From positions 40,598-104,597 of the forward strand of contig JAWXUU010000005.1 in assembly GCA_044426085.1 (NCBI GenBank): 64,000 nucleotides of DNA, in the 5' to 3' direction. Position 1 is the first letter of the stretch; each line of letters begins with the position of its first letter. Source of the DNA: Bacillota bacterium (GTDB taxonomy: Bacteria > Bacillota > Clostridia > Christensenellales > CAMQZB01). The translations under genes were made by a program, and so were the position numbers. Below are positions 14,776 through 60,184 of this stretch, one piece after another. Under the pieces are notes generated by a model. It was not told where the DNA came from. It worked only from the letters and a program-made list of their open reading frames with translations, and made no database searches.

Positions 14776-15124
14776 AATCTATAAAGGATATACAGTTAGA
14801 CTATCTGGCAGAAAGAAAGGGTGCATGTCATTCTTTGGCTATATCTCAATAGTGAGTTCAGCGTGGCACGATGTGTATATTCTAAACCATGAAATAGGTC
14901 ACGAAAGACAGCGTGCCAAATACGGCAATCTCAAAACTTTGTTCAAGGTTTATATCCCAAGTATCTTCGGATATTGGTGCAAAAATCTAAGCTATGAGGA
15001 CTACTATAAACAGCCGTGGGAAGCTGATGCAAATAAACTAGGTGGCAATGAGTATTGGGAAAATGACCAATACAATCCGCCTCTGACCGAAGATGAGATT
15101 GAGGAGGAAATTAGCAAAGGATGA
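14759..15124 (+). CDS. Small HExxH-motif protein (putative zinc metallopeptidase)
   Basis: TTG start 6 nt after AAGGGAGG, overlapping the rSAM 3' end by 17 nt. Motif ILNHEIGHERQ. Confidence 0.55.
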   Translation: MATVTKIYKGYTVRLSGRKKGCMSFFGYISIVSSAWHDVYILNHEIGHERQRAKYGNLKTLFKVYIPSIFGYWCKNLSYEDYYKQPWEADANKLGGNEYWENDQYNPPLTEDEIEEEISKG

Positions 15125-15417
15125 TTGAGATAGCAATCGGTATCGTGGCAAGTGTGACAGGTGGGTTCGCACTTTTTTTATTGCAAAGATATTTCAAAAA
15201 GAAAGAACGTCAAGATGAACTAAGAGATAGCAAAAAAGCGCGAGAAAACATACTTATAATTAAGAGTATTGATGCTATCGGAGATTTGACAGAAGCAAAC
15301 AGCATAGCACTTCGTGATGGAAAAACCAACGGAGAAATGCACGAGGCAATGGACCATTATGGTTCGGTGAAAAAAGAGATGTATATATATCTCTTGGAAC
15401 AAAATTCAAAGAAATAA
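15121..15417 (+). CDS. Small membrane protein (one N-terminal TM helix plus a charged helical tail)
   Basis: ATGA overlap with the upstream gene. N-terminus IEIAIGIVASVTGGFALFLL followed by a Lys/Glu-rich segment. Confidence 0.5.
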   Translation: MIEIAIGIVASVTGGFALFLLQRYFKKKERQDELRDSKKARENILIIKSIDAIGDLTEANSIALRDGKTNGEMHEAMDHYGSVKKEMYIYLLEQNSKK

Positions 15418-15561
15418 ATGTGAAAATACTTCGCACTGCTGCGTTAAGAGCAAATTTTTTCGGTTCACGTATTTTAATACGCTCGCCTCAAAAATTTCCT
15501 CTTGCCTTGCATTGCTCGCATTTTCGCATTTATTCAATATTAAAAATAGGAGTAAAATTTT

Positions 15562-15945
15562 ATGACAACAGAAATGATTCAAACAATAATTCAAACACTG
15601 CTAACAGCAGTAATCTTGCCACTACTAACATACGCAGGCGTGGCACTCAAAAATCTTATCGATGAAAAGATAAAAGACTCAACAGTTGCAAGATATCTAT
15701 CAAGCGCAACCGATGCCGTGGAAAATGCGGTTACTGCAGTAATGCAAACCTATGTTGCAAACTTAAAATACGATGATCTATTCGACGAAGAAGCTCAAAA
15801 AACAGCTTTCGCACTTGCAGTAGAAAAAGCAACACAATCAATAACAGTAGATGGCAAAGCTATCATAGCAGAACTATACGGTGACTTCGACACATGGCTA
15901 GCCGATAAAATCGAAGCAACAGTATATAAAGAAAACGCAGAGTAG
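15562..15945 (+). CDS. Holin (LL-H-family-like)
   Basis: AGGAG RBS. N-terminal TM segment IIQTLLTAVILPLLTYAGVAL plus an amphipathic tail, ~127 aa, at the end of the late operon. Confidence 0.6.
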   Translation: MTTEMIQTIIQTLLTAVILPLLTYAGVALKNLIDEKIKDSTVARYLSSATDAVENAVTAVMQTYVANLKYDDLFDEEAQKTAFALAVEKATQSITVDGKAIIAELYGDFDTWLADKIEATVYKENAE

Positions 15946-15954
15946 AAAGCGGAA

Positions 15955-15984
15955 AAAGCATTATCTTCGGGTAATGCTTTTTAT
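15955..15984 (+). terminator. Rho-independent terminator of the late operon
   Basis: Hairpin AAAGCATTA-TCTTCGG-TAATGCTTT followed by a T-run. Confidence 0.75.
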
Positions 15985-15998
15985 CTATATGGGGGAAT

Positions 15999-16211
15999 AT
16001 GGAAGAGAACACGGAAAAAAGAAAATTGCCACGTATGCGAACCATTGAAGAAACCTATGCTTTCTTGCTAGGTGAAGATGCGGAAACTGGCATAACAAAA
16101 TATTGGATTAGAGAAATGTGCAAGCAGAACAAAGTACATTGCTTGAAGAGTGGTAGTAAATATTTAATCAATTTAGATGATCTAATTGTGAAATTGTCTG
16201 AGGGTTGCTGA
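15999..16211 (+). CDS. Excisionase-family HTH DNA-binding protein
   Basis: 70 aa, immediately upstream of the integrase. Pattern RMRTIEETYAFL...ITKYWIREMCKQNKV fits MerR/excisionase-type HTH proteins. Confidence 0.6.
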   Translation: MEENTEKRKLPRMRTIEETYAFLLGEDAETGITKYWIREMCKQNKVHCLKSGSKYLINLDDLIVKLSEGC

Positions 16212-16352
16212 ACTTTCAGACGATTTTTTTATTTATTTTCATTCTAAGGCTGTGGTAGGAGTATTTGCTAGACTTTAAAAATTCTTTGCGGTAATGTTGC
16301 TGTTAGCAAAGCTGGAAGAATATATCGGCTAAAAATAAAAGGAGGAGATGTT

Positions 16353-17744
16353 ATGGCATCAATAACGAAAAGAGAGAATAAAAAAGGTATCGCATATAAG
16401 ATACAAGTAAAAGTAAAAGACAAAGGTTCGGGCAAAGACATAGTGAAATCAACTACATGGCAAGTGCCAGCTGGCATGAACGCAAAGCAAGCTGAAAGGG
16501 CGGTGATAGTTGAAGCTGAAAAATATGAAGAGCAAGTGAAGAAAATGCTGTCAAGTTCAGCGGATATAGATAGTGATAGCAAAATCACATTTGCAAAGTT
16601 CGCGGAAATATGGCTTGAGAAATGCAAGCAAGAGAACAGTGAGATATACTATGTGAACTCAAGAAAATGTATAAACACAGCTAATCAATATATAGGTGGA
16701 TATAAATTGACTGAGCTGAGTCCAAGAATAATTCAAAACTTCTATGGAAAAATAGATATGCTGACAATGATCACATATAAAATCACCCCTCACGTGGATA
16801 AAATCCGAGAGGCAATGAAAGAAAAGAGCATGAGATTCACGGACATGAAAAAAGGTAGCAATAACTTCACTGTAACAACTGTGCTTAATGGTAAGCCTGT
16901 CAAGCTGCAAACAGCTGAGCGGGTAAGCGAAATTCTAGGTCGCAAGGTGGAAGAACTGTTCGATGTGGAGAAAACTGAAAAGCCGTACGCTCACGAAACC
17001 ATACACAAAGTGAAAAGAACGGTGAGAGCAATATTGGCACTTGCCAAAAAGCAAAGGCTTGTTGATGACAACTATGCAACAGCTGACTACATCACATTCC
17101 CTAAAAAGCCAAAGGTGGAAATTGAGCATCTCGATGATGTGGGTGCAAAGAGATTGTATCAGGCACTTGAAACATGCGACAACCCGCAAAAGAAAATAGC
17201 GGTGCTGATACCACTGCTGACTGGCATGAGAAAAGGCGAACTATGTGGACTAGAGTGGGAAGATATAGACTTTGAGAAATCTACCATAAGCATAAAACGC
17301 AGTAGAATATCCGTGAACACAGTGGGTGTGATAGATAAGTCGACTAAGACTGAAAGTTCGGAAAGAACCTTAACAATGCCAAATAGACTCAAGGAAGAAC
17401 TGCTAATCTACAAGGCATGGCAAGAGGCTAGAATAGACACATTCGGAGATAGATGGGAGAACTCAGGGCGAATACTCACATCGGAATTCGGTGGCAAAAT
17501 ACACCCAAGTGTGCCAAATGGTTGGCTCAACGATATAGTGAAAAAAGCAGGTCTGCCACACGTAACTATGCACTCGCTTAGGCACACTAACATAACCCTT
17601 CAAATAATGGCAGGCGTGCCACTGGTCACAGTAAGCGGTCGAGCAGGACACGCAAGAACCAGCACTACAACGGATATATACAGTCACTTCATAAAAAGCA
17701 GTGATAAAGAAGCTGCAGATAAGTTGGATAGTATATTCGGATAG
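16353..17744 (+). CDS. int: Tyrosine site-specific integrase
   Basis: C-terminal catalytic pattern HSLRHT...GHARTSTTTDIYSH (R..HxxR..Y) and an N-terminal SAM-like domain. GGAGG RBS. Confidence 0.9.
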   Translation: MASITKRENKKGIAYKIQVKVKDKGSGKDIVKSTTWQVPAGMNAKQAERAVIVEAEKYEEQVKKMLSSSADIDSDSKITFAKFAEIWLEKCKQENSEIYYVNSRKCINTANQYIGGYKLTELSPRIIQNFYGKIDMLTMITYKITPHVDKIREAMKEKSMRFTDMKKGSNNFTVTTVLNGKPVKLQTAERVSEILGRKVEELFDVEKTEKPYAHETIHKVKRTVRAILALAKKQRLVDDNYATADYITFPKKPKVEIEHLDDVGAKRLYQALETCDNPQKKIAVLIPLLTGMRKGELCGLEWEDIDFEKSTISIKRSRISVNTVGVIDKSTKTESSERTLTMPNRLKEELLIYKAWQEARIDTFGDRWENSGRILTSEFGGKIHPSVPNGWLNDIVKKAGLPHVTMHSLRHTNITLQIMAGVPLVTVSGRAGHARTSTTTDIYSHFIKSSDKEAADKLDSIFG

Positions 17745-17753
17745 GATAGGACA

Positions 17754-17815
17754 TTATATAGTAAAGTACAAACACCCCTAGTGAAGATAAATTCTTCCGC
17801 CAGGGGTGTTTTTTC
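17754..17815 (+). repeat. Copy 1 of a ~61-bp terminator-containing direct repeat
   Basis: TTATATAGTAAAGTACAAACACCCCTAGTG...CAGGGGTGTTTT; near-identical to 18959-19019. Contains hairpin ACACCCCT(A)G/C(Y)AGGGGTGT plus a T-run. Confidence 0.85.
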
Positions 17816-17817
17816 TA

Positions 17818-17846
17818 TTGCAATTGTGTGTAAATTATGCTAATAT
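17818..17846 (+). promoter_or_regulatory. Sigma-A-type promoter for the cargo gene
   Basis: TTGCAA, 17-nt spacer, TAATAT. Confidence 0.5.
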
Positions 17847-17981
17847 ATATGCGTAAGTAGTACGTTCAAAATCACTTAGAATCGTTTGTTATGCCTAGAT
17901 TTTTAAAAGTGGAGGTGTACGCAGAAAGCCTTGCAGAATTTACTCTATTATATAGGAATATAATTCAAAGGAGTAAAATAT

Positions 17982-18956
17982 ATGAAAAACACACAAAAAG
18001 TTGAAAGATTTGATTATACAAAGATCGAATCGAGAGAAGATTTGAAATACTTTGGCATACATAAAAAATGTGGCAGAGTTATTATTGATACCGATAGGTA
18101 TCAAGAGATTCTTGAAGAGGATGGGATTGATAAATTTCTTCCTGTCGGTTTATTTGCCGATAGTAATGTATCATATTTCACGCCAAATAAGGTGAAACGG
18201 CATGACTATAAAATTAATATTTTTAGAGATTTAATATATAAACTCAAAAACGATTGGTTTGAAGAATACAAACCTATATTTCAAACAATTAAGTCGCCAG
18301 ATGAAGTGTATAATAGCACATTTCTGGATGCATTATCTGTTACGGGATGCTCGGAAGATTATGATAGCGTACAAGAAGAAGCTGTCATGGCGAAAATTAA
18401 AAGAATACCTACGTATAATTGGATTCTGCAAAATCTTTACTGCAGCTTTATATCAAAAATAACTGCAGAGATTGATAGATATGCATTCATAGTAATGGCT
18501 GAAATGGGTTATAAATCTACGGATTTTAGCATGCTTTCCTTTTTTCAATTTTCAGATGGATTACAAAAGGATAATAACGGGATAAAAATAAATAAATTAA
18601 AAAAATATAACGCTTATAATATGTTGCACAAAATTAATAATTTTTTGAAACATAACTCAATCGATTCGTATAACGAATTGAAAAAATATTATCCAGATAA
18701 TGTGCGCTCGCTAAAGAAAGATACAGCCAAGTCGGCATATCAAAATGGTATGTTTGCAGGAGATTGGATAGTCATAAAAGATGAGTATATAGATAATATT
18801 TTTGACAGTTTAATCTTATTTTTTGAAGATTATTGTAGAAAGTTTTTAAATGAAGATATGGATGACTCGATGTGGAACTACGATGAGTATTTTTTAGGCG
18901 CATACAAAGAGATTAAAAACTTGGATGTGTACTTTTATAAAGAGTATGGTTTTTAA
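17982..18956 (+). CDS. Hypothetical 324-aa protein (AT-rich cargo gene; candidate anti-phage function by context only)
   Basis: AGGAG RBS. Lys/Asn/Tyr/Asp-rich, no motif recognised. Bracketed by the duplicated terminator. Confidence 0.4.
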   Translation: MKNTQKVERFDYTKIESREDLKYFGIHKKCGRVIIDTDRYQEILEEDGIDKFLPVGLFADSNVSYFTPNKVKRHDYKINIFRDLIYKLKNDWFEEYKPIFQTIKSPDEVYNSTFLDALSVTGCSEDYDSVQEEAVMAKIKRIPTYNWILQNLYCSFISKITAEIDRYAFIVMAEMGYKSTDFSMLSFFQFSDGLQKDNNGIKINKLKKYNAYNMLHKINNFLKHNSIDSYNELKKYYPDNVRSLKKDTAKSAYQNGMFAGDWIVIKDEYIDNIFDSLILFFEDYCRKFLNEDMDDSMWNYDEYFLGAYKEIKNLDVYFYKEYGF

Positions 18957-18958
18957 TA

Positions 18959-19019
18959 TTATATAGTAAAGTACAAACACCCCTAGTGTAAGATGAAATT
19001 CTTCTGCTAGGGGTGTTTT
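18959..19019 (+). repeat. Copy 2 of the terminator-containing direct repeat
   Basis: See 17754-17815. Copy-to-copy distance is 1205 bp. Confidence 0.85.
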
Positions 19020-19036
19020 ATTTGTAGTTATTTTTA

Positions 19037-19918
19037 TTATATCCAAAGTGATAGGTCAACTTCTTTTGATATTCTTTTATAATAATTCTTGCCATCTTCG
19101 TGATAATCAAAAATGAATATTCCTATAAATTTATATCCCGCTTCTCCTAGTGCGTTTCTTGATTTGCCAAAGAGAATTCTGTTTGATGGTGTTCCACGTT
19201 CAAAGGATATTGAGTCTCTTGTGTCATTGACTTCGCACATTATTTCTTGATCTTCGGTCAATGTATTGACCCAACCTCGAGAAGAACCAGCTGTGGGCAC
19301 TCCATCAATTACGATTGCCATTTTGAGACACCAAAGATAATTTGTGCCATCTAAGTGGACGGAACTTTTCTGATAGCCTGTATAGTCCTTTCCGAAGCAA
19401 TTGGCAATTTCGTAAATTGTACTAAACGTTAAGTTGTCATCAACGTGGATTTTACCATTTTTTCTTGCAATTTCTGTTGGATTTTTGTCAACTTCCCAAG
19501 TGGAAAATTGCATGGTATTAATTCTGTGATTTATTATGTTTACGGCATTGTTAATTTGCTTTATGACATCATTGTAACTTAGGTCTGCACGTATGCGGAT
19601 CAAATCTTTTTCTACGTTGAAATTATTCAGAGCAGACAGAGCTGATTCAATACTGATTTCACGTTGTCTGTCGTGTGCTTTGTTTTCTTGATGATAAGAC
19701 TCGTCACATTCAATTGCTAAGTTAAGTTGGGGAAAATATAAATCAAGCAAAGAGTATTTGCCGTTACCTAAATTGACATACTGTTGGGAAACGGGTTGTA
19801 TATCATCACGATCCATTTTGTTCCAAATGGCGTTGATGATGAAATTCTCGTAGTCTTTCCTTTTTGTTCGAGAAAAAGTTTTGATTAAATAATTTAATTT
19901 TTTGTCAACAGCACTCAT
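19037..19918 (-). CDS. Putative PvuRts1I/AbaSI-family modification-dependent (5hmC / glucosyl-5hmC) restriction endonuclease
   Basis: 293 aa. N-terminal motif LLDLYFPQLNLAIECDESYH and C-terminal GYKFIGIFIFD...GKNYYKRISKEV match my memory of PvuRts1I (YLADLLFPQLNLYLEIDEAHH ... YRFLGVFQID...GKNIFKRINTKV). That protein is, as I recall, also 293 aa. This needs checking by alignment. Confidence 0.55.
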   Translation of the reverse strand: MSAVDKKLNYLIKTFSRTKRKDYENFIINAIWNKMDRDDIQPVSQQYVNLGNGKYSLLDLYFPQLNLAIECDESYHQENKAHDRQREISIESALSALNNFNVEKDLIRIRADLSYNDVIKQINNAVNIINHRINTMQFSTWEVDKNPTEIARKNGKIHVDDNLTFSTIYEIANCFGKDYTGYQKSSVHLDGTNYLWCLKMAIVIDGVPTAGSSRGWVNTLTEDQEIMCEVNDTRDSISFERGTPSNRILFGKSRNALGEAGYKFIGIFIFDYHEDGKNYYKRISKEVDLSLWI

Positions 19919-19940
19919 AATTCCTCCAAGATATTTGTAA

Positions 19941-19960
19941 AGCCACCTGCAAAGGTGGCT
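19941..19960 (-). terminator. Hairpin directly downstream of the tRNA
   Basis: AGCCACCT-GCAA-AGGTGGCT, a perfect 8-bp stem. Confidence 0.5.
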
Positions 19961-19964
19961 TTAG

Positions 19965-20039
19965 TGGTAGGCCCACCGGGAATCGAACCCAGAATTAATC
20001 CTTAGGAGGGATTTGTAATATCCGTTTTACTATGGACCC
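19965..20039 (-). tRNA. tRNA-Arg (anticodon CCU), CCA encoded
   Basis: Folded by hand. Acceptor GGGTCCA/TGGGCCT; D-arm GTAA-AACGGATA-TTAC; anticodon arm AATCC-CTCCTAA-GGATT; T-arm CTGGG-TTCGATT-CCCGG; then A-CCA. Confidence 0.9.
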
Positions 20040-20189
20040 ATATTTGATTTTTTTGATAGACTATACTCTTAATTTTTACAACACGGGTGAAAAATTGGGT
20101 GACAAGGTTTTGGTGACTTAATATTTATGCATAAAATATTGATTTTATGCGTTATATTGGCAGTTTATACGTCATATTATACATATATG

Positions 20190-20253
20190 CAAATTCGCAC
20201 AATCGCCCAGTTGGCTTAGGAGGGGGCTGTTATATCCATTTAACTATGGAAGC
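20190..20253 (-). pseudogene. Decayed tRNA-Arg(CCU)-like paralog
   Basis: The 5' half GCTTCCATAGTTAAATGGATATAACAGCCCCCTCCTAAG is ~80% similar to the intact tRNA up to the anticodon loop. The 3' side of the anticodon stem, the T-arm and the acceptor 3' strand no longer pair. Confidence 0.45.
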
Positions 20254-20376
20254 TTGTTTGGTGGGGTGAATTTATTGGGGTTTGTTATATTGACTTTATA
20301 TTTATGGCGTATTATTAACACTATAAACTATTATATATCATATTTTCGCAAAAATCAAGCGTATTGGCGGGTTTTG

Positions 20377-23327: not shown

Positions 23328-23370
23328 TTGAAAAGCCAACAAACAAAATAAACAAAATAAACAACAATAA

Positions 23371-23407
23371 AAAGCCGAGCGGAAAAGCTTGGCTTTTGAT
23401 TTTTTTA
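23371..23407 (+). terminator. Rho-independent terminator
   Basis: AGCCGAG-CGGAAAAG-CTTGGCT followed by a T-run. Confidence 0.6.
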
Positions 23408-26245: not shown

Positions 26246-26550
26246 AAATTAAAAACAGGCTTCGCTCTGCGAGCTCGATAAAAATTAAAAACAGGCTTCG
26301 CTCTGCGAGCTCGATAAAAATTAAAAATTAAAAATTAAAAATTAAAAATTAAAAATTGTGGTAATGCATTTCGCTACGCTACATGCATTTCAATTATATT
26401 TGGCTACAATAAGCCAAACACTTCAGCATTAACAATCTATTAATGTAAAAAGGCTTAAAAATTGAAAGCACGAGCGGTACGCGAGTGCATTACCACAATT
26501 TTTAATTTTTATCGAGCTCGCAGAGCGAAGCCTGTTTTTAATTTTTAATT
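26246..26550. mobile_element. MITE/REP-like structured inverted-repeat element, copy A (full length, with outer modules)
   Basis: Left end: 2 x AAAATTAAAAACAGGCTTCGCTCTGCGAGCTCGAT, then (AAATTA)n, then GTGGTAATGCA. Right end: TGCATTACCACAATTTTTAATTTTTATCGAGCTCGCAGAGCGAAGCCTGTTTTT. The core is nearly identical to copy E. Confidence 0.8.
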
Positions 26551-26551
26551 A

Positions 26552-26594
26552 TAAAAAATGGGTTCGTCCAAGCTGTAAACTTGAACGAACCCAT
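26552..26594 (-). terminator. fba terminator
   Basis: Hairpin ATGGGTTCGTCCAAG/CTTGAACGAACCCAT with a U-run on the minus strand. Confidence 0.75.
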
Positions 26595-26622
26595 TATTAT
26601 TTTATTTTTAAATTGTCAGCGA

Positions 26623-29960: not shown

Positions 29961-30167
29961 AAACTCTCTAACTCATATTTTGTAATGTAATAATCAATTT
30001 GATATATAATAATCAATTTAATATATAGTATAATACACTAATTTTAAAAAAAAGTCTACACATATTTAAAAATTCTTTCATTTTCATGTTCGCTTTTGTG
30101 TTATTTTGATGATTTTTTATCATTTTGGACAAAATACTTCCAATCAGTTATTGTGCTAGGGGGTATT

Positions 30168-31292
30168 ATGTTTAAGAAAATTACACTGTTTAAAAAAGTT
30201 GCACTGCTTATATTGTGCGTTGCGGTTGTGTTGTCGGTTGTGAGCGTGGAAAAATCATGCGCGCTTGCAAATTTAAAGGAAATTGAGATGTGTGGGGCGG
30301 TTGAAAGTGGCAATGAAGTGCTGTATGACGGTGATGTTTGTCACTTGTTTACCCACTGTCTTGTTGCAAATCCGAAAAAAGCTTTTGTGAAATCAAACGA
30401 TATGGCGGTGCACTACGATGCCGACTGCCTTGTGCCGTGCGAGTTTGAAAGGATTTTGCAGGAGCTTTATAACAACAATTATGTGCTTTGCGATATATCT
30501 GATACCTACGAAATTGAAAATGGCAAGGCGAAAAAGAAAAGTTTTTTGTTTCCGCAAAATAAAAAGCCACTCGTTTTAAGTTTCGACGATGTGGTTTACG
30601 ACCCCAAAAAAAGTGGCAAGGGCATGGCGGATAGGCTTGTTTTGCAAAACGGCGAAATCGCCACAGAAACTTTTGGCGAGGGCGTCAGCTTCGATAACGA
30701 ATTTGTAGGCATTTTGGAAAGCTTTATAAAAAAGCACCCCGATTTTTCGCATAACGGTGCAAGGGGAATAATTTGCCTAACGGGGTTTTCTGGTGTGTTT
30801 GGATATAGAACGCAAGAGGGAAGCGAGAACCGCGAAAGTGAAATCGCAAAGGCAAAGCAAGTTGCAAAAAGGCTTAGCGAAAGCGGTTGGAAGTTCGCTT
30901 GCCACAGCTTTGCCCACGGACACATGAAAAAAATGACAGCAGAGCAAATTGCTCTGGACACCCAAAAGTGGAACGACCAAGTTGCCAGCATAGTTGGAAA
31001 AACACAGCTGTATGTTTATCCTTATGGCGAGTGGGTGATCAGCGAAAATCAGAATGGCGAAAATGTCACAAGCGAAAAGCACACCGCGCTTGTGGATGCA
31101 GGCTTCAAAGTCTTTTTCGGTGTGGGCGCAAAACAGTTCTATTCATATCTGCCTTTCTCGGGTGAAGATAAATATCTTTTCATGGATAGATGTTCCCTTG
31201 ATGGAGTGACACTGAGAAGCGAAAACGGCGAGATAGAAAGGTATTTTGACCCTAAGAAAGTTATTGATGAAGAGAGTAGGAGGAAAAATTAA
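30168..31292 (+). CDS. Membrane-anchored polysaccharide deacetylase-family protein
   Basis: N-terminal TM segment KVALLILCVAVVLSVVSV. LVLSFDDVVYD and CHSFAHGHM resemble NodB-type motifs. Confidence 0.5.
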   Translation: MFKKITLFKKVALLILCVAVVLSVVSVEKSCALANLKEIEMCGAVESGNEVLYDGDVCHLFTHCLVANPKKAFVKSNDMAVHYDADCLVPCEFERILQELYNNNYVLCDISDTYEIENGKAKKKSFLFPQNKKPLVLSFDDVVYDPKKSGKGMADRLVLQNGEIATETFGEGVSFDNEFVGILESFIKKHPDFSHNGARGIICLTGFSGVFGYRTQEGSENRESEIAKAKQVAKRLSESGWKFACHSFAHGHMKKMTAEQIALDTQKWNDQVASIVGKTQLYVYPYGEWVISENQNGENVTSEKHTALVDAGFKVFFGVGAKQFYSYLPFSGEDKYLFMDRCSLDGVTLRSENGEIERYFDPKKVIDEESRRKN

Positions 31293-31405
31293 AAATTAAA
31301 AATTAAAAATTCAAAATTAAAAATTGTGGTAAGGCACTCGCTTCGCTTGTGCTTTCTATAATTTAAATAATTGAAAGTGCGGGCAGAGTGAGTGCATTAC
31401 TGCAC
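31286..31405. mobile_element. MITE/REP-like element, copy B (short variant)
   Basis: (AAATTA)n then GTGGTAAGGCACTCGCTTCGCTTGTGC ... TTGAAAGTGCGGGCAGAGTGAGTGCATTAC. The upstream gene's stop codon lies inside the hexamer tract. Confidence 0.65.
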
Positions 31406-31722: not shown

Positions 31723-32259
31723 ATGGAAATCGGAATCAAAATCAAACAAATGCGTTTGTCGCTTGGGCTCACACAAGAGGAACTTGCCGACAGATGTGAA
31801 ATAACAAAGGGGTATATTTCCCAGCTAGAAAACGACCTAACCAGTCCTTCGATTGCAACGCTTTCGGATATTTTATCCGCACTTGGAAGTGACCTCAGCG
31901 AGTTTTTTGAAAAGGGTGGCAAGGATGAAAGGGTTGTGTTTTCTGAAGATGCCTTTATCATAAAGGAAACCGACGAAGGCAAGCTTACTTGGCTTGTGCC
32001 AAACTCGCAAAAAAACACAATGGAACCTATTTTGATGATTGTGAAAAAGGGGTGCGCAACAGAAGATGATATGCCACACGAAGGTGAGGAATTTGGCTAT
32101 GTTTTAAAAGGCAGAATCAAAATCAACCTTGGATCTAAAAGCTATATTGCAAAAAAGGGCGAGTCTTTTTATTACGTTTCTGATAAGACGCACAACATCG
32201 AAAGTATTGGCTCGGAAGATGCGAAGATTATTTGGGTATCTTCACCACCAAACTTTTAA
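31723..32259 (+). CDS. XRE-family HTH plus cupin transcriptional regulator (PuuR-like)
   Basis: IKQMRLSLGLTQEELADRCEITKGYISQLEN plus a C-terminal cupin; upstream of potABCD. Confidence 0.8.
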   Translation: MEIGIKIKQMRLSLGLTQEELADRCEITKGYISQLENDLTSPSIATLSDILSALGSDLSEFFEKGGKDERVVFSEDAFIIKETDEGKLTWLVPNSQKNTMEPILMIVKKGCATEDDMPHEGEEFGYVLKGRIKINLGSKSYIAKKGESFYYVSDKTHNIESIGSEDAKIIWVSSPPNF

Positions 32260-32352
32260 AATAGCAATTGAAATATAAAAACAATAAAGAAAAATAAAAA
32301 ACAACAAAATTTTTCATACATACATGACGCTGTCGCGTCGGGAGGAATAGAC

Positions 32353-33810
32353 ATGATTGACAAGAATCACGTAATCATTGATTTAAAAAGCATCACTAAA
32401 AGCTTTGGTGATTTTCACGCGGTAAAGGATTTGAGCCTTTTTGTGAGAAAGGGTGAATTTATCACTTTGCTTGGACCATCTGGTTGTGGCAAGACAACAA
32501 CGCTTCGCATACTTGCGGGTTTTGATATGCCAACTTCTGGTTCGGTTATCATCGATGGTGAAGATTTCACGTCAGTGCCTCCCCACCTTCGCCCTGTCAA
32601 CACTGTTTTCCAAAGATACGCACTTTTCCCACACCTTAATGTTTACGATAACATTGCGTTTGGATTGAAGCTAAAAAAATGGGATTCTGATAGAATTGAA
32701 AAGAAAGTCAACTACGTTTTGAAAGTTGTTGGCATGACTGATTATGAAGATAGGGATGTGGCTTCTCTTTCTGGCGGACAACAACAGCGTGTTGCAATTG
32801 CCCGCGCGATTGCAAACGAGCCACAAATCTTGCTTTTGGATGAGCCACTTGGTGCGCTTGATTTGAAGATGAGAAAAGATATGCAACTTGAACTTATCAA
32901 AATGCATAACGAACTTGGAATCACTTTCCTTTATGTGACGCACGATCAAGAAGAAGCGCTCACAATGAGCGATGTTATTGTGGTTATGAACGAAGGTGTT
33001 ATCCAACAAATCGGAAAGCCAACTGATATTTATAACGAACCTATCAATGCGTTTGTTGCCGACTTCATTGGCGACAGCAACATTTTGTCGGGCACGATGA
33101 AAAAGGACTATCTTGTTCATTTCGACGGCGTGGATGTTGAATGTGTTGACGGCGGATTTGAAGAAAACGAACCTGTGGACGTTGTTATTCGTCCAGAGGA
33201 TATATATATTGTTGATAGAACAATGAAAGAAGGCTATCATCACGGCGAAGTTATCTCTTGCATATTCAAAGGTGTGCATTATGAAATGGGCGTGAAAACA
33301 GAAAGCACAACAGAATATTATGTTCAAGATACAAAAGCTCGCCAAATCGGCGAACAAGTAAGCATATATGTGGATAGCGAAGATATTCACATCATGCATA
33401 AAATGCACCTCACAAACACTTTCAGTGGTGTTGTTTCTGATTTCTGCGAAGTGGAATTTGCCGGCGAAGTTTTCGATTGCAACACAAACCAACTTGCAAA
33501 AGGTGCAACTCTTTCGGAAGATAAACGCCCAATCGATGCAAGCGGAAACGAAATCAGCTTCAAGGGTGATAAAGTGAAAGTGGAAATCGACTTTGCAGAT
33601 GTGGAACTTACTGATAACCAAGAAGAAGGCACACTTGCAGGTGAAATCAAAACGATTCTTTTCAAGGGCAACCACTATCACCTTGGCGTGAAAACTGAAT
33701 ATGGCGACATGTTTTATGTGGACACAACAGATGTTTGGGACGACGGCGACAGAGTTGGTATCAAAATCCACCCTGAAAAAATCCGCCTATGCCACAGCGA
33801 GGTAGAATGA
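32353..33810 (+). CDS. potA: Spermidine/putrescine ABC transporter ATPase with an extended C-terminus
   Basis: Walker [10 protein letters not shown], signature LSGGQQQR, Walker B LLLDEP. 485 aa, with two TOBE-like C-terminal segments. Confidence 0.85.
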
Positions 33811-34586: not shown

Positions 34587-35371
34587 AGAAAATATCAGCA
34601 TGGGTGTATATCGCCTTGGTGCTTTGCTTTATATATCTCCCTATTGCAACAATCATGGTCTATTCTTTCACAACATCGAAAGTTATCGGAACGTGGACAG
34701 GTTTTTCATTCGAACTTTATAAAGAACTTTTTGTGGGTTCTTCAAGCGAAGCAATATTGCAAGCGTTCAGAAACACTATCGTTTTGGGGCTTAGTGCCGC
34801 AACGATTTCAACGTTTTTGGGCACTATTGCGTCGATTGGTATTTTCACAATGAAGGGCAGTGCGAAAAAGAAAGTCTTGTCGCTAAACCAAATCCCAATC
34901 TTGAATGCCGATATCGTGACGGGTGTTGCGCTTATGTTGTTTTTTGTTGTGCTTGGTGTTTCAAGAGGTTTTTTCACCATCTTGATTGCACATATCGTCA
35001 TATGCACACCTTTTGTTGTGCTCGCGATTATGCCAAAGCTGAAACAAATGGACGGCTCGCTTTATGAGGCGGCGTGCGACCTTGGTGCAAAGCCACTTCA
35101 AGTGATTCACAAAGTTATCGTTCCGCAAATTTTGCCGGGGATTTTGTCTGGGTTTATGCTTGCGTTCACCCTTTCAATCGACGATTTTGTAATCACTATA
35201 TTCAACAACGGAAGCTTCCAAACACTTTCAACATATATCTATGCCGACGCAAAAAAAGGCGGACTCACGCCAAGCTTGCGCGCACTTTCAACACTGATTT
35301 TTGTTTTTGTGCTAACTATGCTTCTCATTGTTAACATAAGAAAGAGCAAGGATGAAAAGAAAAACAAATAA
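34580..35371 (+). CDS. potC: Spermidine/putrescine ABC transporter permease
   Basis: Overlaps potB; loop YEAACDLGAKPLQV. Confidence 0.85.
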   Translation: MVKKISAWVYIALVLCFIYLPIATIMVYSFTTSKVIGTWTGFSFELYKELFVGSSSEAILQAFRNTIVLGLSAATISTFLGTIASIGIFTMKGSAKKKVLSLNQIPILNADIVTGVALMLFFVVLGVSRGFFTILIAHIVICTPFVVLAIMPKLKQMDGSLYEAACDLGAKPLQVIHKVIVPQILPGILSGFMLAFTLSIDDFVITIFNNGSFQTLSTYIYADAKKGGLTPSLRALSTLIFVFVLTMLLIVNIRKSKDEKKNK

Positions 35372-35532
35372 TACAAACAAATAATACAAACAAAATAAAC
35401 AAACGAAATAAATAAAACCAAAATAAGAGAAAAGAAGAAACAAACAAAGACAATTTGAAAAGAAAAGTTTTTAAATCACGAAAAGAAAAGAAAAAAGTAA
35501 AAAGAAAAAGTAAAAATTAATGAGGAAGTAAA

Positions 35533-36933: not shown

Positions 36934-36961
36934 GAAAGAGGTGGCAGTGCCACCTTTTTCT
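36934..36961 (+). terminator. potD terminator
   Basis: AGGTGGCA/TGCCACCT hairpin plus a T-run. Confidence 0.65.
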
Positions 36962-36966
36962 TATTT

Positions 36967-37173
36967 AATTAAAAATTAAAAACAGGCTTCGCTCTGCGAG
37001 CTCGATAAAAATTGAAAATTGTGGTAAGCACGGGAGCGAAGCTCCCTGTGCATTCAATTATTAGATACAACAGTAAAAGAGTTACGATTAACAAGTAATG
37101 CTCCTATATAAATTTCTAACTAATAGTATGCACGAACGCAGTGAGTGCGTTACTACAATTTTCCATTTTCAAT
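36967..37173. mobile_element. MITE/REP-like element, copy C (left outer module present, different core)
   Basis: AATTAAAAATTAAAAACAGGCTTCGCTCTGCGAGCTCGATAAAAATTGAAAATTGTGGTAAGCACGGGAGCGAAGCTCCCTGTGCATTCAAT ... GCACGAACGCAGTGAGTGCGTTACTACAATTTTCCATTTTCAATT. Confidence 0.7.
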
Positions 37174-37238
37174 TATACAATCGCTTTGACTTTGATTACG
37201 AAACATGTTATACTGTATCCACGAAAGGGGGAGTTATT

Positions 37239-37764: not shown

Positions 37765-37944
37765 CAATTTCAAACCGGTGTGAGGTTTGATTGGCAAGTG
37801 AGGATTGCCGTGCTATAAGTTTTGTTGGCGTGTGATGCCAAAGTGAAAAGGCACTTGTGTGGAGTGGATTTTCGTGTGGTTAAAATATCTATTAAGGATG
37901 TTATAAATATATGCAATAAGGATAAAATTATGTGCATAATGTAT

Positions 37945-38409
37945 CTAAATTTCAAGTGTGTGGCTTGAAAAATATTCTGGTGGTGGCATTTTGATTTCCG
38001 CTTTAGAAGCAAAGAATTTCAAATTCTTTTCGTATTCCATTCGTTCAATCAATAAAACTTCAAGATAACTTGAAGCGTATGATAAAATTTCATCAAGATA
38101 TCTGTGATATGTGCGCGGGGAAATATCAAGCTTTTTGCAAGTTTTTGCCCGCTTGTGTCGCAAGAAATATCGCGACTTTATTATGTATCGCTTGTTTTCG
38201 CGAAAGTATCGGTATGTTTTTTGCACAACTTTGCTCATCATGATGTTCAAAAAATCAGCAGTTCCAAATTCTTCGTCCCCCGAATAAAGCAGAGCACTGT
38301 TGAATGGATACATAGTGTTTGTGAAAGCGACTAACTTTTTCGAACATGTGTTGAAATGTTCATCGTAATGAAAAAAATAGTATTCAATAAGTTTTTTGTT
38401 GGCGTTCAT
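37945..38409 (-). CDS. ArpU/RinA-like phage transcriptional regulator (sigma region-4-like HTH)
   Basis: 154 aa; C-terminal HTH LDISPRTYHRYLDEILSYAS. Confidence 0.5.
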   Translation of the reverse strand: MNANKKLIEYYFFHYDEHFNTCSKKLVAFTNTMYPFNSALLYSGDEEFGTADFLNIMMSKVVQKTYRYFRENKRYIIKSRYFLRHKRAKTCKKLDISPRTYHRYLDEILSYASSYLEVLLIERMEYEKNLKFFASKAEIKMPPPEYFSSHTLEI

Positions 38410-38651
38410 AAATGTTCACCCCCAAAAGACATCTTTGCATCATCGGAAAAAACCGTCAGCATTTCTTCGTTAAAATGTTGGAAAAATTCCCAGAAAAAAT
38501 TGTTGATTAAGTATTCTAGTAATGCAGTAGTATTTTTGTTTGCCTCAATTCCAAATGAATCTATAAGTTCCTTTTTCATCGCTTTTTTAATGCTGTTCTT
38601 TGGCACGTCGTATTCAAATGGAATCTCAAATTGATATTTGAGCTTTGCCAT
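38406..38651 (-). CDS. Hypothetical 81-aa protein
   Basis: ATGA overlap with the downstream ArpU-like gene; AAGGAAGG RBS. Confidence 0.45.
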   Translation of the reverse strand: MAKLKYQFEIPFEYDVPKNSIKKAMKKELIDSFGIEANKNTTALLEYLINNFFWEFFQHFNEEMLTVFSDDAKMSFGGEHL

Positions 38652-39868: not shown

Positions 39869-39887
39869 CATATACTCTACTTAAAAT

Positions 39888-39978
39888 ATTGAATGCACAG
39901 GGAGCTTGCTCACGTGCTTACCTCAATTTTTAATTTTTATCGAGCTCGCAGAGCGAAGCCTGTTTTAAATTTTTAATT
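39888..39978. mobile_element. MITE/REP-like element, copy D (half element, inverted relative to the left half of copy C)
   Basis: Its reverse complement aligns at ~93% (by eye) with 36967-37055. Confidence 0.7.
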
Positions 39979-40022
39979 AAAAAAGAAGGTGGCAAAATTC
40001 CATTTTGCCACCTTCTTTTTTT
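39979..40022. terminator. Bidirectional hairpin terminator
   Basis: GAAGGTGGCAAAAT-TCC-ATTTTGCCACCTTC flanked by A- and T-runs. Confidence 0.7.
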
Positions 40023-59995: not shown

Positions 59996-60184
59996 AATTA
60001 AAAATTAAAAATTGTGGTAAAGCATTCCGCTATCGCTGCATGCATTTCAATATATTTTGGCTACAAAAAGCCAAACGCTTTAACCTTTCAAATCTATTAA
60101 TGTAAAAAAGGCTTTAAATTGAAAGCACGAGCAACGCGAGTGCATTACCACAATTTTCAATTTTCACTTTTCACTTTTCAATTC
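59996..60184. mobile_element. MITE/REP-like element, copy E (full core, no outer modules)
   Basis: AATTAAAAATTAAAAATTGTGGTAAAGCATTCCGC...TGCATTTCAAT...TTGGCTACAAAAAGCCAA...ATTGAAAGCACGAGCAACGCGAGTGCATTACCACAATTTTCAATTTTCAC. The core is collinear with copy A. Confidence 0.8.

What the first reader, a model, noticed from the sequence alone, without database searches (positions are those of the whole stretch)
26246..26550. Family of structured MITE/REP-like inverted-repeat elements (five copies in 64 kb)
Seen: copies lie at 26246-26550 (A), 31286-31405 (B), 36967-37173 (C), 39888-39978 (D, half) and 59996-60184 (E). The shared architecture starts with an AT hexamer tract (AAATTA)n and an inner terminal inverted repeat, GTGGTAA(N)GCA on the left and TGCATTACCAC on the right. 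Each inner repeat is followed by a GC-rich hairpin, and nested TTTCAAT / ATTGAAAG arms follow. In copies A and E there is also a ~65-bp core with its own hairpin (TTGGCTACA-AAGCCAA). A, C and D additionally carry an outer module, AAAAACAGGCTTCGCTCTGCGAGCTCGAT, which is duplicated in tandem on the left of A and inverted on its right. All copies are intergenic and sit at the 3' ends of genes. A and E cores are nearly identical although 34 kb apart, which argues for recent spread or selection. Inference: a non-autonomous mobile element, or a structured-RNA / terminator-insulator repeat family. I do not recognise it as a described family.
Basis: partly seen in the sequence, partly recalled or inferred. 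Interest (0 to 1): 0.7.

Follow-up and report, generated by a model that had tools for sequence, protein, structure and literature searches.

The report
High-copy palindromic repeat with heptamer arrays
The five copies are real members of a very abundant family of nested-palindrome DNA repeats in an uncultured fish-gut Clostridia bacterium. Their ends are 7-base tandem arrays of the same kind that flank 'intervening sequence' protein genes in several other bacterial phyla.

Summary
All five copies sit where stated, and their shared motifs are far beyond chance. There are two corrections. The AT tract has a 7-base period, (AAAAATT)n, not a hexamer. The A and E cores are 82% identical, not nearly identical.

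The family is not local. Word depth in the source fish-gut metagenomes is about 300-1000 times the flanks over the arrays and arms. Three related MAGs carry it at about one arm per 3 kb.

Each element is modular:
- an optional outer hairpin module;
- a period-7 array;
- an invariant GTGGTA head;
- an arm hairpin, GCAC-(2x2 loop)-GC..GC-GTGC, supported by compensatory changes;
- a hypervariable core;
- the mirror image of the arm, head and array.

Arrays use different units in different copies (AAAAATT or GAAAGGT), but left and right nearly always match. I found no target-site duplication, no Rfam family and no transposase.

Conspecific genomes differ in array length and carry swapped, inverted interiors at one site. 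One site is empty in the window and filled in the MAGs.

My best reading is a REP/BIME-like non-autonomous selfish element whose mobilising enzyme is unidentified. Unexpectedly, 9 of 11 four-helix-bundle ('23S rRNA IVS protein') genes from four phyla are flanked by complementary inverted heptamer arrays, against 0 of 2040 control positions. One hairpin-type element lies inside a 23S rRNA gene.

The parts
26246..26327 (+). Copy A, left outer region: 36-nt unit (heptamer + small GC hairpin CAGGCTTCGCTCTGCGAGCTCGAT) repeated 2.3 times in tandem; modules at 26256-26279 and 26292-26315
26315..26357 (+). Copy A, left period-7 array (AAAAATT)x6
   Evidence: period 7, 6.1 copies, 100% matches
26358..26394 (+). 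Copy A, left arm: head GTGGTAAT, hairpin GCATTTCGCTACGCTACATGC (26366-26386), then ATTTCAAT
26395..26459 (.). Copy A core (A/E type, with small hairpin TTTGGCT-ACAATA-AGCCAAA); few-copy (about 6x flank depth)
   Evidence: (D12)
26460..26496 (-). Copy A, right arm: AATTGAAA, hairpin GCACGAGCGGTACGCGAGTGC (26468-26488; tandem G.A internal loop on this strand), head ATTACCAC
26497..26552 (-). Copy A, right array (AATTTTT)x2, inverted outer module (26511-26534), terminal array (TTTTTAA)x2.3
31284..31325 (+). Copy B, left array (AAAAATT)x6; the first unit supplies the TAA stop of ORF 30096-31292
31326..31359 (+). Copy B, left arm: GTGGTAAG + GCACTCGCTTCGCTTGTGC + TTTCTAT
31369..31404 (-). Copy B, degenerate right arm (AATTGAAA-GTGCGGGCAGAGTGAGTGC-ATTACTGCA); no right array
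   Evidence: (D19)
36967..37020 (+). Copy C, left end: array, outer module (36983-37006), array
37021..37058 (+). Copy C, left arm: GTGGTAA + fully paired hairpin GCACGGGAGC-GAA-GCTCCCTGTGC + ATTCAAT
37059..37129 (.). Copy C core (unrelated to the A/E core)
37130..37174 (-). Copy C, degenerate right arm (GCACGAACGCAGTGAGTGC-GTTACTAC) and degenerate array (AATTTTC CATTTTC AATT)
39888..39979 (-). Copy D, solo arm: ATTGAAT, hairpin 39895-39917, head TTACCTC, array, outer module (39939-39962), array. It is 94% complementary over 80 nt to the left end of C
   Evidence: (I1)
59996..60013 (+). Copy E, left array (AATTAAA)x2.6
60014..60051 (+). Copy E, left arm: GTGGTAAA + GCATTCCGCTATCGCTGCATGC + ATTTCAAT
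60052..60117 (.). Copy E core, 82% identical to the A core
   Evidence: (D12)
60118..60151 (-). Copy E, right arm: ATTGAAA + GCACGAGCAACGCGAGTGC (60125-60143) + ATTACCAC
60152..60183 (-). Copy E, right array with variant units (AATTTTC)x2 (ACTTTTC)x2
32259..32353 (.). Empty site: intergenic region between the HTH-cupin gene and the ABC gene. It has no element and no array here but is occupied in the related MAGs (L162 4300-4660, L163 4435-4790)

Best explanation
These are copies of a high-copy, non-autonomous, nested-palindrome mosaic element of the REP/BIME (REPIN-like) kind. The host is an uncultured fish-gut Clostridia bacterium.

Each unit consists of:
- an optional small outer hairpin module;
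- a tandem array of a 7-base unit;
- an invariant GTGGTA head;
- a short GC-rich arm hairpin with a conserved 2x2 internal loop;
- a hypervariable core;
- the mirror image of the arm, head and array.

Shown:
- The arms and arrays are present in hundreds of copies per genome.
- The arm hairpin is kept by compensatory changes.
- The unit sequence of the array differs between copies, but left and right arrays match.
- Modules are reshuffled: the same arms occur with either array type and with unrelated cores.
- Arrays change length between conspecific genomes.
- One site carries differently oriented, diverged interiors in two conspecific genomes.
- A site is filled in one species and empty in another.
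- There is no target-site duplication.
- The elements are present in RNA.

Inferred:
- The element spreads as a selfish sequence through its fold-back single-stranded form. The GTGG-tagged arm hairpins are read by a structure-specific enzyme supplied in trans, most likely a HUH/Y1 (RAYT- or IS200-like) enzyme. The strand ending ...hairpin-ATTACCAC-(AATTTTT)n would be the active one.
- The arrays grow and shrink by replication slippage. They also serve as homology for ectopic exchange between copies.
- The element is tolerated because the arrays place stop codons in all three frames for incoming ribosomes, and because the long self-complementary ends let the transcript fold into a rod that can be cut out by RNase III, as in rRNA intervening sequences.

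By architecture the family belongs to a wider class of cassettes bounded by inverted heptamer arrays. That class also includes four-helix-bundle ('23S rRNA IVS protein') genes in four phyla.
For: Reality and chance.

Copy number:
- Flank word depth is 44/31/93/37 in four DNA runs, against 42,000/32,000/161,000/56,000 over array plus head, about 14,000 over the right arm in X1, about 10,000 over the outer module in X1, and about 270 over the A/E core.
- The Logan short-read contig breaks exactly at copies B and C.
- Density is 9 arms in 64 kb here and 8 arms in 21 kb of L162.

Relatives: the family is present in three MAGs at syntenic and other sites.

Arm hairpin:
- 95.7% of cells are paired.
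- 4 of 7 pairs show double changes (for example GC:17 against CG:16).
- The covariation score is 0.186 against 0.080 in shuffles (0/500 reach it).
- The 2x2 internal loop is paired in only 21% of cells.
- The ...TACCAC strand reads GCAC-GA-GC-GNA-GC-GA-GTGC and is the more stable strand in 26 of 35 arms.

Arrays and modules:
- The array unit is concordant left and right in 13 of 15 elements.
- The same arms occur with either array type and with unalignable cores.
- A GAAAGGT array joined to the same head is also seen in the window's own community (X7 loose end at 26352).

Dynamics: array-length polymorphism, swapped and inverted interiors at site A, an empty site in the window against a filled site in the MAGs, and no TSD.

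Rod-like fold: -132.7 kcal/mol, z = -14 for A; z = -4.4 for E as DNA.

Transcribed: RNA depth over the arms is about 330-400x the flank, and the upstream-gene RNA contig runs into the element.

Wider class:
- GTGGTA head plus a species-specific hairpin follows heptamer arrays in metagenome contigs of 31-61% GC. These include Hymenobacter and a copy inside a 23S rRNA gene.
- 9 of 11 four-helix-bundle genes are flanked by complementary inverted period-7 arrays, against 0 of 2040 control positions.

REP definition (GTAG/GTGG tag 0-2 nt 5' of a hairpin): PMC6006769. Unpaired GA in REP stems and inverted dimers: PMC3733652.
Against: - No mobilising enzyme was found. The window's only recombinase is a phage-type integrase.
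- No RAYT-like ORF occurs in the window or in about 90 kb of MAG loci.
- The RAYT-like genes I did find in other gut Clostridia lie in the ruvA-ruvB operon. A canonical GC-rich GTAG REP lies directly downstream of them, not a GTGGTA arm.
- Such GTAG REP pairs are a separate family in the MAGs, nested inside the cores of these elements, and are absent from the window.
- The arm stem (4 bp, a 2x2 loop, then 2-4 bp) is shorter than the 7 or more fully paired bases used to define REPs, and the tag is 3-4 nt from it.
- Insertion itself was never observed, only differences between genomes.
- Depth-based copy numbers come from metagenomes that also hold related strains, and they include a simple repeat.
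- The link to four-helix-bundle cassettes rests on architecture and shared site use, not on sequence homology of the interiors.
Confidence: 0.55

Rival explanations
1. It is a classical MITE. The inner inverted repeat TGTGGTAA...TTACCACA is the end of a DDE-type insertion sequence with TG...CA termini. A full-length copy elsewhere in the genome moves the short copies by cut-and-paste or copy-paste. The heptamer arrays are a preferred target.
For: - There is a perfect 26-nt terminal inverted repeat in A, with TG...CA termini (I15).
- The element is short, lacks an ORF, is intergenic and is multi-copy.
- Ordinary MITEs are active in the same clade: a 185-bp element with a TTAA duplication is polymorphic between two conspecific MAGs.
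Against: - There is no direct repeat at the head/array junction. The two flanks are reverse complements of each other, so the palindrome simply continues.
- The empty site has no array, so arrays arrive with the element and are not a pre-existing target.
- No transposase was found in the window or in relatives' loci.
- The arms keep a hairpin by compensatory change, which a protein-bound duplex end does not need.
- Heads are conserved across phyla while everything after them differs.
Confidence: 0.15
2. It is a host-serving RNA element. Transcribed as part of 3' untranslated regions or operon spacers, the rod-like fold acts as an RNase III processing site, an mRNA stabiliser, or an insulator that stops translation and transcription between neighbouring genes. 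Its abundance would then reflect selection rather than mobility.
For: - The elements are present in metatranscriptome contigs at depths comparable to genes, and the upstream gene's RNA contig reads into element A.
- The fold is very stable.
- The arm hairpin shows covariation.
- Position is always at a gene's 3' end and never between divergent genes.
- Arrays give stop codons in all frames (read directly from the sequence).
- A related element lies in the 23S rRNA helix-25 region, where intervening sequences are removed by RNase III (the RNase III step is established knowledge).
Against: - The element is symmetric, and its two unlike arm types show no constant orientation relative to transcription in the few cases that could be scored.
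- Cores are unalignable between copies.
- Orthologous sites are empty, filled, or filled with a different copy in close relatives.
- Copies sit beside ordinary terminators, and no terminator-like site is found inside them.
- Logan RNA contigs carry no strand or end information and may contain DNA.
Confidence: 0.2
3. It is not a transposing unit at all. Simple heptamer microsatellites and hairpins arise locally next to terminators by replication slippage. They are then homogenised among loci by gene conversion between arrays, without any dedicated enzyme.
For: - Heptamers are the most over-represented long simple repeats in bacteria, and slippage has been proposed for them (Mrazek 2007 as cited in PMC4679880; PMC4692102).
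- Array length differs between conspecific genomes in steps of 7 or of larger blocks.
- Interiors are exchanged between identical arrays.
- Elements abut the A and T runs of terminators.
Against: - Hundreds of near-identical GTGGTA arms at unrelated loci need copying to sites that had no prior homology. The empty site in the window has no array.
- The invariant head is shared with elements in other phyla.
- Inverted rather than direct arrangement of the two arrays is not what slippage produces.
Confidence: 0.1

Closest known systems
REP / BIME / REPIN elements with RAYT (TnpA-REP) transposases
   Same: - Copy number is in the hundreds.
- Location is extragenic, mostly after genes.
- A short GC-rich imperfect hairpin is preceded by a conserved unpaired GT[AG]G tag (here GTGG).
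- Two hairpins in inverted orientation flank a spacer with the tags outside.
- Combinations are mosaic and tandemly reiterated.
- Unpaired GA residues occur in the stem, as in one Pseudomonas family.
- There is no target-site duplication.
(PMC6006769; PMC3733652; here.)
   Different: - The tag is 3-4 nt from a 4-bp basal stem, rather than 0-2 nt from a stem of 7 or more bp.
- Period-7 arrays bound every arm.
- Cores are hypervariable.
- No cognate RAYT was found.
- A separate canonical GTAG REP family coexists in the related MAGs and nests inside these elements.
- GTAG/CGTC REPs were not reported from Firmicutes in PMC3733652.
Heptameric simple-sequence repeats: cyanobacterial STRR, TAACTGA repeats of Beggiatoaceae/Cyanobacteria/Bacteroidetes, GGGAATC of Xanthomonas, GGGGAYT of Nostoc, Geobacter heptanucleotide sites
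   Same: - They are intergenic tandem arrays of a 7-base unit with 2 to tens of copies.
- Length varies between close strains in steps of 7.
- Units often contain stop codons.
- In Xanthomonas 70-75 pairs lie in convergent (inverted) orientation.
- No function is known.
(PMC4679880; PMC4692102; PMC2700814.)
   Different: - Those reports treat the arrays alone. Here the arrays are the outer part of a larger element with heads, arm hairpins and cores.
- The unit sequence differs between copies within one genome.
- The pairing of arrays around four-helix-bundle genes is not mentioned in the papers I could read.
23S rRNA intervening sequences and their four-helix-bundle protein (Pfam PF05635, Avd-like)
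   Same: - Complementary ends form a long stem.
- One hairpin-type element with heptamer arrays lies at the helix-25 position of a 23S rRNA gene.
- PF05635 genes are bounded by inverted heptamer arrays, including AAAAATT/GAAAATT units as in the window (L182).
- The ruvC-ruvA spacer of related Clostridia holds either a PF05635 cassette or a GTGGTA-hairpin element.
   Different: - The window copies carry no ORF.
- No PF05635 gene was seen in the window or the MAG loci.
- The interiors share no sequence.
- The relation rests on architecture and site use only.
Modular MITE-like repeats of other bacteria (Neisseria Correia elements, pneumococcal BOX; from my own knowledge, not tested here)
   Same: They are short, ORF-less, intergenic and transcribed elements that fold into a long stem. 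BOX has a variable number of internal tandem modules, and Correia RNA is cut by RNase III.
   Different: Correia elements have TA duplications and fixed 26-bp ends. BOX modules are 45-59 nt, not 7-nt arrays. There is no sequence similarity.

Membership tests
REP / REPIN-RAYT | Conserved GTAG or GTGG tetranucleotide 0-2 nt 5' of the hairpin (PMC6006769) | tested here: inconclusive
   GTGG is nearly invariant in 35 arms. It lies 3-4 nt from the GCAC stem in the window family and 2 nt from the hairpin in the metagenome relatives.
REP / REPIN-RAYT | Basal stem of 7-20 fully paired bases, optionally a second stem after a 1-3 nt bulge | tested here: not met
   The typical arm has a 4-bp basal stem, a 2x2 internal loop and a 2-4 bp inner stem. 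Only a few arms (C-left, L044 6541) are fully paired over 9-10 bp.
REP / REPIN-RAYT | High copy number, extragenic, predominantly downstream of genes, often as inverted dimers | tested here: met
REP / REPIN-RAYT | A single-copy RAYT gene flanked by the same REPs | not testable with these tools
   The whole genome is not available. No RAYT-like ORF occurs in the window or in about 90 kb of MAG loci. RAYT-like genes found in other Clostridia have a canonical GTAG REP directly downstream instead.
MITE (TIR transposon derivative) | Terminal inverted repeats | tested here: met
   (I4, I5, I14, I15)
MITE (TIR transposon derivative) | Target-site duplication flanking the ends | tested here: not met
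   In 17 elements the flanks at both candidate boundaries are reverse complements or unrelated, not direct repeats. A true TTAA duplication is easily seen for another MITE in the same genomes.
MITE (TIR transposon derivative) | Autonomous partner with the same ends | tested here: inconclusive
   None was found in the window or in the fetched loci. The genome as a whole was not searchable.
Heptameric simple-sequence repeats (STRR / LSSR type) | Tandem repeats of a 7-nt unit, 2 or more units, intergenic, length-variable between strains | tested here: met
23S rRNA IVS-type cassette | Encodes a PF05635 four-helix-bundle protein | tested here: not met
   There is no ORF in the cores. phmmer with the L182 protein finds nothing in the window or MAG loci.
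23S rRNA IVS-type cassette | Complementary ends forming a long stem; found in helix 25/45 of 23S rRNA | tested here: inconclusive
   The stem feature is met. The rRNA location is seen only for a metagenome relative, L151, not for the window family.
Any Rfam RNA family | Match at or above the family's gathering score | tested here: not met
   Only tRNA-Arg matches in the window. E-value scans of element A and of nine relatives give no credible hit.
Intrinsic terminator | GC-rich hairpin immediately followed by a U tract | tested here: not met
   No terminator-like site lies inside A or E. The only one near A is the aldolase terminator at 26557-26595, outside the element.

The most novel reading that the evidence does not exclude
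Inverted arrays of a 7-base unit, with a unit sequence private to each copy but complementary between the two sides, mark one cross-phylum class of insertion cassettes that has not been recognised as such.

Its members would include:
- the ORF-less GTGG-tagged hairpin elements of this window, present in hundreds of copies per genome;
- the four-helix-bundle (Avd-like, '23S rRNA IVS protein') genes of Cyanobacteria, Bacteroidota, Spirochaetota and Clostridia;
- at least some intervening sequences of 23S rRNA.

The long-noted excess of heptameric simple repeats in bacterial intergenic DNA (STRR, TAACTGA, GGGAATC, GGGGAYT) would largely be the footprint of these cassettes.
Probability: 0.35. Interest if true: 0.8.

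Novelty: new variant of a known kind. Interest (0 to 1): 0.62.

Why it matters
- Repeats of this density shape genome assembly. Short-read contigs break at every copy.
- They also affect gene-end structure, mRNA processing and recombination in a gut Clostridia lineage for which I found no such family described.
- The arm hairpin, with its conserved tandem G.A loop and invariant GTGG tag, is a concrete substrate for finding the enzyme that copies such elements outside Proteobacteria.
- Heptamer repeats have been known to be over-represented in bacteria since 2007, without a mechanism or role.
- The link found here between inverted heptamer arrays, four-helix-bundle genes and rRNA intervening sequences makes that question testable with existing genomes.

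Tried and rejected
- **Genome-contig scan wasted.** The 16-base head pattern was too unspecific. Only three loci of one MAG were useful.
- **Metagenome scan.** With a 20-base pattern about two thirds of the hits were chance, several of them promoters of the form TTGACA-N17-TGTGGTATAAT. These were set aside.
- **Viral contigs.** There were three hits, all one unrelated phage sequence.
- **Rfam.** No family matched at gathering or E-value thresholds.
- **Literal sequence strings in the paper library.** Nothing relevant turned up. Two keyword searches were too loose to be useful.
- **Sigma-54 look-alike.** TGGCAC-N5-TTGCT occurs in one MAG arm and arises from the head plus hairpin. It is absent from most arms and was rejected (sequence).
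- **Terminator function.** No terminator-like site lies inside A or E.
- **Promoter inside the element.** Single consensus-level hits are no more than shuffles give.
- **RAYT as the cognate enzyme.**
  - One RAYT-like ORF turned up near a related element.
  - Its homologues sit in the ruvA-ruvB operon with a canonical GTAG REP directly downstream.
  - The link to the GTGGTA arms is therefore unproven.
- **C-left and D as ends of a 2.9-kb cargo cassette.** The segment holds cytidine deaminase, a 154-aa ORF and a LexA-like repressor. The idea is possible but untested. C also has its own right arm, and short-read contigs cannot span the 80-nt repeat.
- **Exact ends from the empty site.** Window-versus-MAG intergenic DNA is too diverged to place the boundary to the base.
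Full report

Reading the five stretches shows the described features at the stated coordinates.
- The head pattern AAAATTGTGGTAAN{0,1}GCA occurs six times in the window against 0.00 expected from shuffles.
- The 24-nt outer module occurs five times without a mismatch against 0.00 expected.
- The repeat finder recovers the inverted arms of A and E and the A/E core similarity.

Four points need correction.
- Tandem Repeats Finder gives period 7 for the AT tract, (AAAAATT)n, with six copies in A and in B. It is not a hexamer.
- The A and E cores are 82% identical over 99 nt (D12), not nearly identical.
- B lacks a right array and has a degenerate right head.
- D is a solo arm whose 80 nt are 94% complementary to the left end of C, 2.87 kb away (I1).

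All copies are intergenic and next to a gene's 3' end.
- A lies between the convergent AMP-binding and class II aldolase genes.
- B follows a polysaccharide deacetylase gene whose TAA stop is supplied by the first heptamer.
- C follows the terminator of an ABC-transporter binding-protein gene.
- D lies between two terminators after a LexA-like gene.
- E lies 22 nt after a HIGH-nucleotidyltransferase gene.

**2. Where does it come from, and is it confined to this region?**

The window is held almost word for word by four fish-gut metagenome runs. A short-read contig of one of them ends exactly inside copies B and C.

Laying the contigs of those runs on element A gives these word depths:

| Region | Depth |
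|---|---|
| Flanks | 44, 31, 93, 37 |
| Array plus head | 42,000, 32,000, 161,000, 56,000 |
| Right arm | about 14,000 (X1) |
| Outer module | about 10,000 (X1) |
| A/E core | about 270 |

Related strains share the sample and the array is a simple repeat. Even allowing for both, the arms exist in hundreds of copies per genome and the cores in a few. The assembled density agrees: 9 arms in 64 kb here and 8 arms in 21 kb of a relative.

The nearest relatives of the aldolase are a 'Bacillota bacterium' MAG at 94% identity, then Oscillospirales-type Clostridia at 75-82%. Three MAGs of that clade carry the family at syntenic and other sites.

**3. Anatomy**

From 35 distinct arms the unit is:

[heptamer]n - GTGGTA - 1-2 nt - GCAC - NN - GC/GGC - loop - GC/GCC - NN - GTGC - (A)TTTCAAT-like.

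The hairpin is supported by comparative evidence.
- 95.7% of cells are paired.
- Four of seven pairs have changes on both sides, for example GC in 17 arms and CG in 16 at one pair.
- The covariation score is 0.186 against 0.080 in shuffles, and none of 500 shuffles reaches it.
- All slid controls are lower.
- The two positions between the stems are paired in only 21% of arms. This is a conserved 2x2 internal loop, TC/TC on the GTGGTA strand and GA/GA on the other strand.

On that other strand the arm reads GCAC-GA-GC-GNA-GC-GA-GTGC-ATTACCAC-(AATTTTT)n. With RNA parameters it is the more stable strand in 26 of 35 arms. Tandem sheared G.A pairs and GNA triloops are stable in both DNA and RNA. 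That is established knowledge and was not tested here.

The whole of A folds into one rod at -132.7 kcal/mol, z = -14.

**4. The arrays are part of the element and co-vary**

In the MAGs most copies carry (GAAAGGT)n on the left and (ACCTTTC)n on the right. Others carry (AAAAATT)n and (AATTTTT)n.
- Left and right units agree in 13 of 15 elements.
- One RNA contig of the window's own community joins a GAAAGGT array to the same head.
- Identical arms occur with either array type and with cores that cannot be aligned. The element is therefore a mosaic of modules.
- The intergenic site between the HTH-cupin and ABC genes is filled in the MAGs. In the window it is empty and has no heptamers, so arrays come with the element.
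- There is no direct repeat at the head/array junction or at the outer boundary. The flanks are reverse complements of each other, often ending in AAAAACAG plus a small GC hairpin, which is the 'outer module'.
- Three or four heptamers of either type place TAA or TGA in all three frames for a ribosome entering the element (read directly from the sequence).

**5. Dynamics**

Two conspecific MAGs are 98% identical over 21 kb. They differ in two ways.
- Array length differs, by blocks of AATTGAACGAAGTTTTT plus heptamers.
- At site A they carry homologous but diverged interiors in opposite orientation between the same arrays.

The window has yet another interior and another array unit at that site. 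This is rapid turnover. The most economical explanations are slippage and exchange between copies through the arrays. Because the arrays are inverted repeats, they allow either orientation.

The same two MAGs also differ by two insertions of an unrelated 185-bp MITE with a clear TTAA duplication. A duplication would therefore have been seen if this family made one.

**6. Transcription**

Four metatranscriptomes of the same study hold the locus.
- RNA contig depth over the arms is about 330-400 times the flanking gene.
- The upstream gene's RNA contig continues into the outer module.
- These contigs have no strand or end information and may include DNA. This shows presence in RNA and nothing more.
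- No terminator-like site lies within A or E.

**7. Relatives in other organisms**

A metagenome scan for two heptamers plus GTGGTA gave 52 loci. About 16 of them are real elements: longer arrays, often with AAGAATT variants, followed by GTGGTA and a species-specific hairpin, usually a second hairpin and an inverted array.
- They come from contigs of 31% to 61% GC.
- One is in Hymenobacter, between dxr and rseP, and is conserved in a 94%-identical relative.
- One lies inside a bacterial 23S rRNA gene at the helix-25 region.
- Several abut or overlap the stop codon of the upstream gene.
- Hairpins differ by compensatory changes between copies of one assembly.

A conserved unpaired GTGG tag next to a variable hairpin is the signature used to define REPs (PMC6006769). 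Inverted dimers with tags outside, and unpaired GA in the stem, are also known for REPs (PMC3733652).

**8. Search for the enzyme**

- The window encodes a phage-type integrase (16353-17744) and no transposase.
- With E. coli RayT as probe, the only hit in all fetched DNA was a 165-aa ORF in metagenome locus L139, 650 bp from a related element.
- That ORF matches NCBIfam REP_Tyr_transpos at E = 1.3e-14, below the curated cutoff.
- Its homologues keep the position ruvA-RAYT-ruvB in many gut Clostridia contigs.
- Those genes have a canonical GC-rich GTAG REP directly downstream and, in L183/L184, also one upstream of ruvA.
- Such GTAG REP pairs form a separate family in the MAGs, nested in the cores of the larger elements. 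They are absent from the window.

The RAYT link to the GTGGTA arms is therefore unproven. No RAYT-like ORF occurs in the window or in about 90 kb of MAG sequence.

**9. An unexpected connection**

In those Clostridia the ruvC-ruvA spacer holds one of four things:
- nothing;
- a GTAG REP;
- a GTGGTA-hairpin element;
- a gene for a four-helix-bundle protein (Pfam PF05635, '23S rRNA intervening sequence protein') bounded by inverted heptamer arrays.

In L182 the arrays are GAGAATT AAAAATT GAAAATT before the ATG and TTTTCAATTCTCAATTTTCAATT after the stop.

I then fetched nine such genes from plasmids of Monoglobus, Treponema, Bernardetia, Chondrinema, Nostoc, Anabaena, Aulosira, Euhalothece and Planktothrix.
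- Of the 11 genes in all, 10 have period-7 tracts within 150 nt on both sides.
- In 9 of them an upstream and a downstream tract are at least 12/14 complementary.
- Each has its own unit: AATTCGC, TAGTGAT, GGTCACT, AATCCCC, AATTCAA, GTGGAAA and others.
- None of 2040 random positions in unrelated loci has tracts on both sides.

Some of these units are the very heptamers described as unexplained simple repeats: GGGGAYT in Nostoc, and TAACTGA-like in Bacteroidota (PMC4692102; PMC4679880). Paired convergent heptamer arrays were also noted in Xanthomonas. I found no paper in the library that links heptamer arrays to these genes. The library is incomplete, so this is not proof of novelty.

**10. 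Interpretation**

The best-supported reading is a non-autonomous, selfish, REP/BIME-like mosaic element.

Shown:
- abundance and modularity;
- a structure-constrained arm;
- co-varying inverted arrays;
- turnover between close relatives;
- absence of a duplication;
- presence in RNA.

Inferred:
- copying through a fold-back single strand, recognised at the GTGG-tagged hairpin by a HUH/Y1-type enzyme acting in trans;
- slippage and array-guided exchange;
- tolerance through all-frame stops and through a stem that RNase III could remove.

I give 0.55 to the general statement and about 0.25 to the specific HUH step. The rivals are a DDE-type MITE (0.15), a host-serving RNA element (0.20), and slippage with conversion only (0.10).

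**11. Novelty**

The kind is known: REP/BIME-like repeats and heptamer simple repeats. The combination is new as far as I could check:
- period-7 arrays as co-varying ends;
- a GTGG-tagged hairpin with a conserved G.A loop;
- hypervariable cores;
- a Clostridia host.

The wider link to four-helix-bundle genes and rRNA intervening sequences is the most novel reading not excluded. It needs a systematic survey.

Noticed in passing
L179 855-1275; L182 7005-7390; L186-L194 (plasmid loci): Genes for the four-helix-bundle '23S rRNA IVS protein' (PF05635) are bounded by inverted period-7 arrays with a unit private to each gene. This holds in Clostridia, Spirochaetota, Bacteroidota and Cyanobacteria: 9 of 11 genes, against 0 of 2040 control positions.
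   Followed up: partly
L151 250-720 (reverse strand): A heptamer-array / GTGGTA / two-hairpin element lies inside a bacterial 23S rRNA gene at the helix-25 region, the usual place of intervening sequences.
   Followed up: partly
L162 9633-9815 and L163 13645-13825: A different 185-bp MITE (ends GGTCACTTCTAAAAAGT... / ...ACTTTTTAGAAGTGCCC) with a TTAA target duplication is present or absent between two conspecific MAGs, so it has moved recently.
   Followed up: partly
L044 6343(+)/6486(-); L162 14307(+)/14464(-); L163 14394/14551: Canonical GTAG-tagged REP pairs (TGTAGGGGCGnACCCATGTGTnCGCCC) are nested inside the cores of the larger elements in the MAGs. None occurs in the window (0 hits against 3.2 expected by chance).
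   Followed up: partly
L171-L185, e.g. L184 4416-7439: A RAYT-like gene (NCBIfam REP_Tyr_transpos, below cutoff) is conserved inside the ruvC-ruvA-RAYT-ruvB operon of many gut Clostridia contigs. A GTAG REP lies directly downstream of it and, in some contigs, another lies upstream of ruvA.
   Followed up: partly
window 36958-37037 and 39908-39987: The left end of C and the solo arm D form an 80-nt, 94% inverted repeat. It encloses 2.87 kb with a cytidine deaminase gene, a 154-aa ORF without a Pfam match and a LexA-like (HTH + S24 peptidase) gene. This could be an invertible or cargo-carrying segment.
   Followed up: no
window 17583-20268 versus L162 17851-20515: This stretch is 95% identical to the MAG, while neighbouring syntenic genes are 66-89% identical. 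It holds a PvuRts1I-like/SRA endonuclease gene and a 324-aa ORF, next to tRNA-Arg at 19965-20039. This suggests a recently shared island.
   Followed up: no
window 1-17744 and about 37900-54000: There are two phage-like gene clusters. The first ends with an integrase (16353-17744). The second has a large terminase (ORF to 42085, likely start 40758) and genes with collagen-like GXY repeats (49096-49813) and Q/G/M-rich repeats (48023-48456). A Cys-rich 51-nt repeat lies at 12852-13153.
   Followed up: no
window 35362-35520; 40650-40745; 23333-23373; 45261-45340: Long A/C-rich, low-complexity leaders (AAAC, AAAACCC and similar) lie directly upstream of the ribosome-binding sites of several genes.
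   Followed up: no
L167 11160-11330 versus L116 8430-8550: In Hymenobacter the dxr-rseP spacer holds either the AT-rich heptamer element or, in a 93%-identical relative, a GC-rich 130-nt perfect-stem palindrome. The same site is used by two unrelated repeats.
   Followed up: no
L122, L136, L146, L150, L153, L157: The 20-mer used for the metagenome scan also hit promoters of the form TTGACA-N17-TGTGGTATAAT, in which AAAATTAAAAATTGTGG is the spacer plus extended -10. These are unrelated to the repeat family.
   Followed up: no
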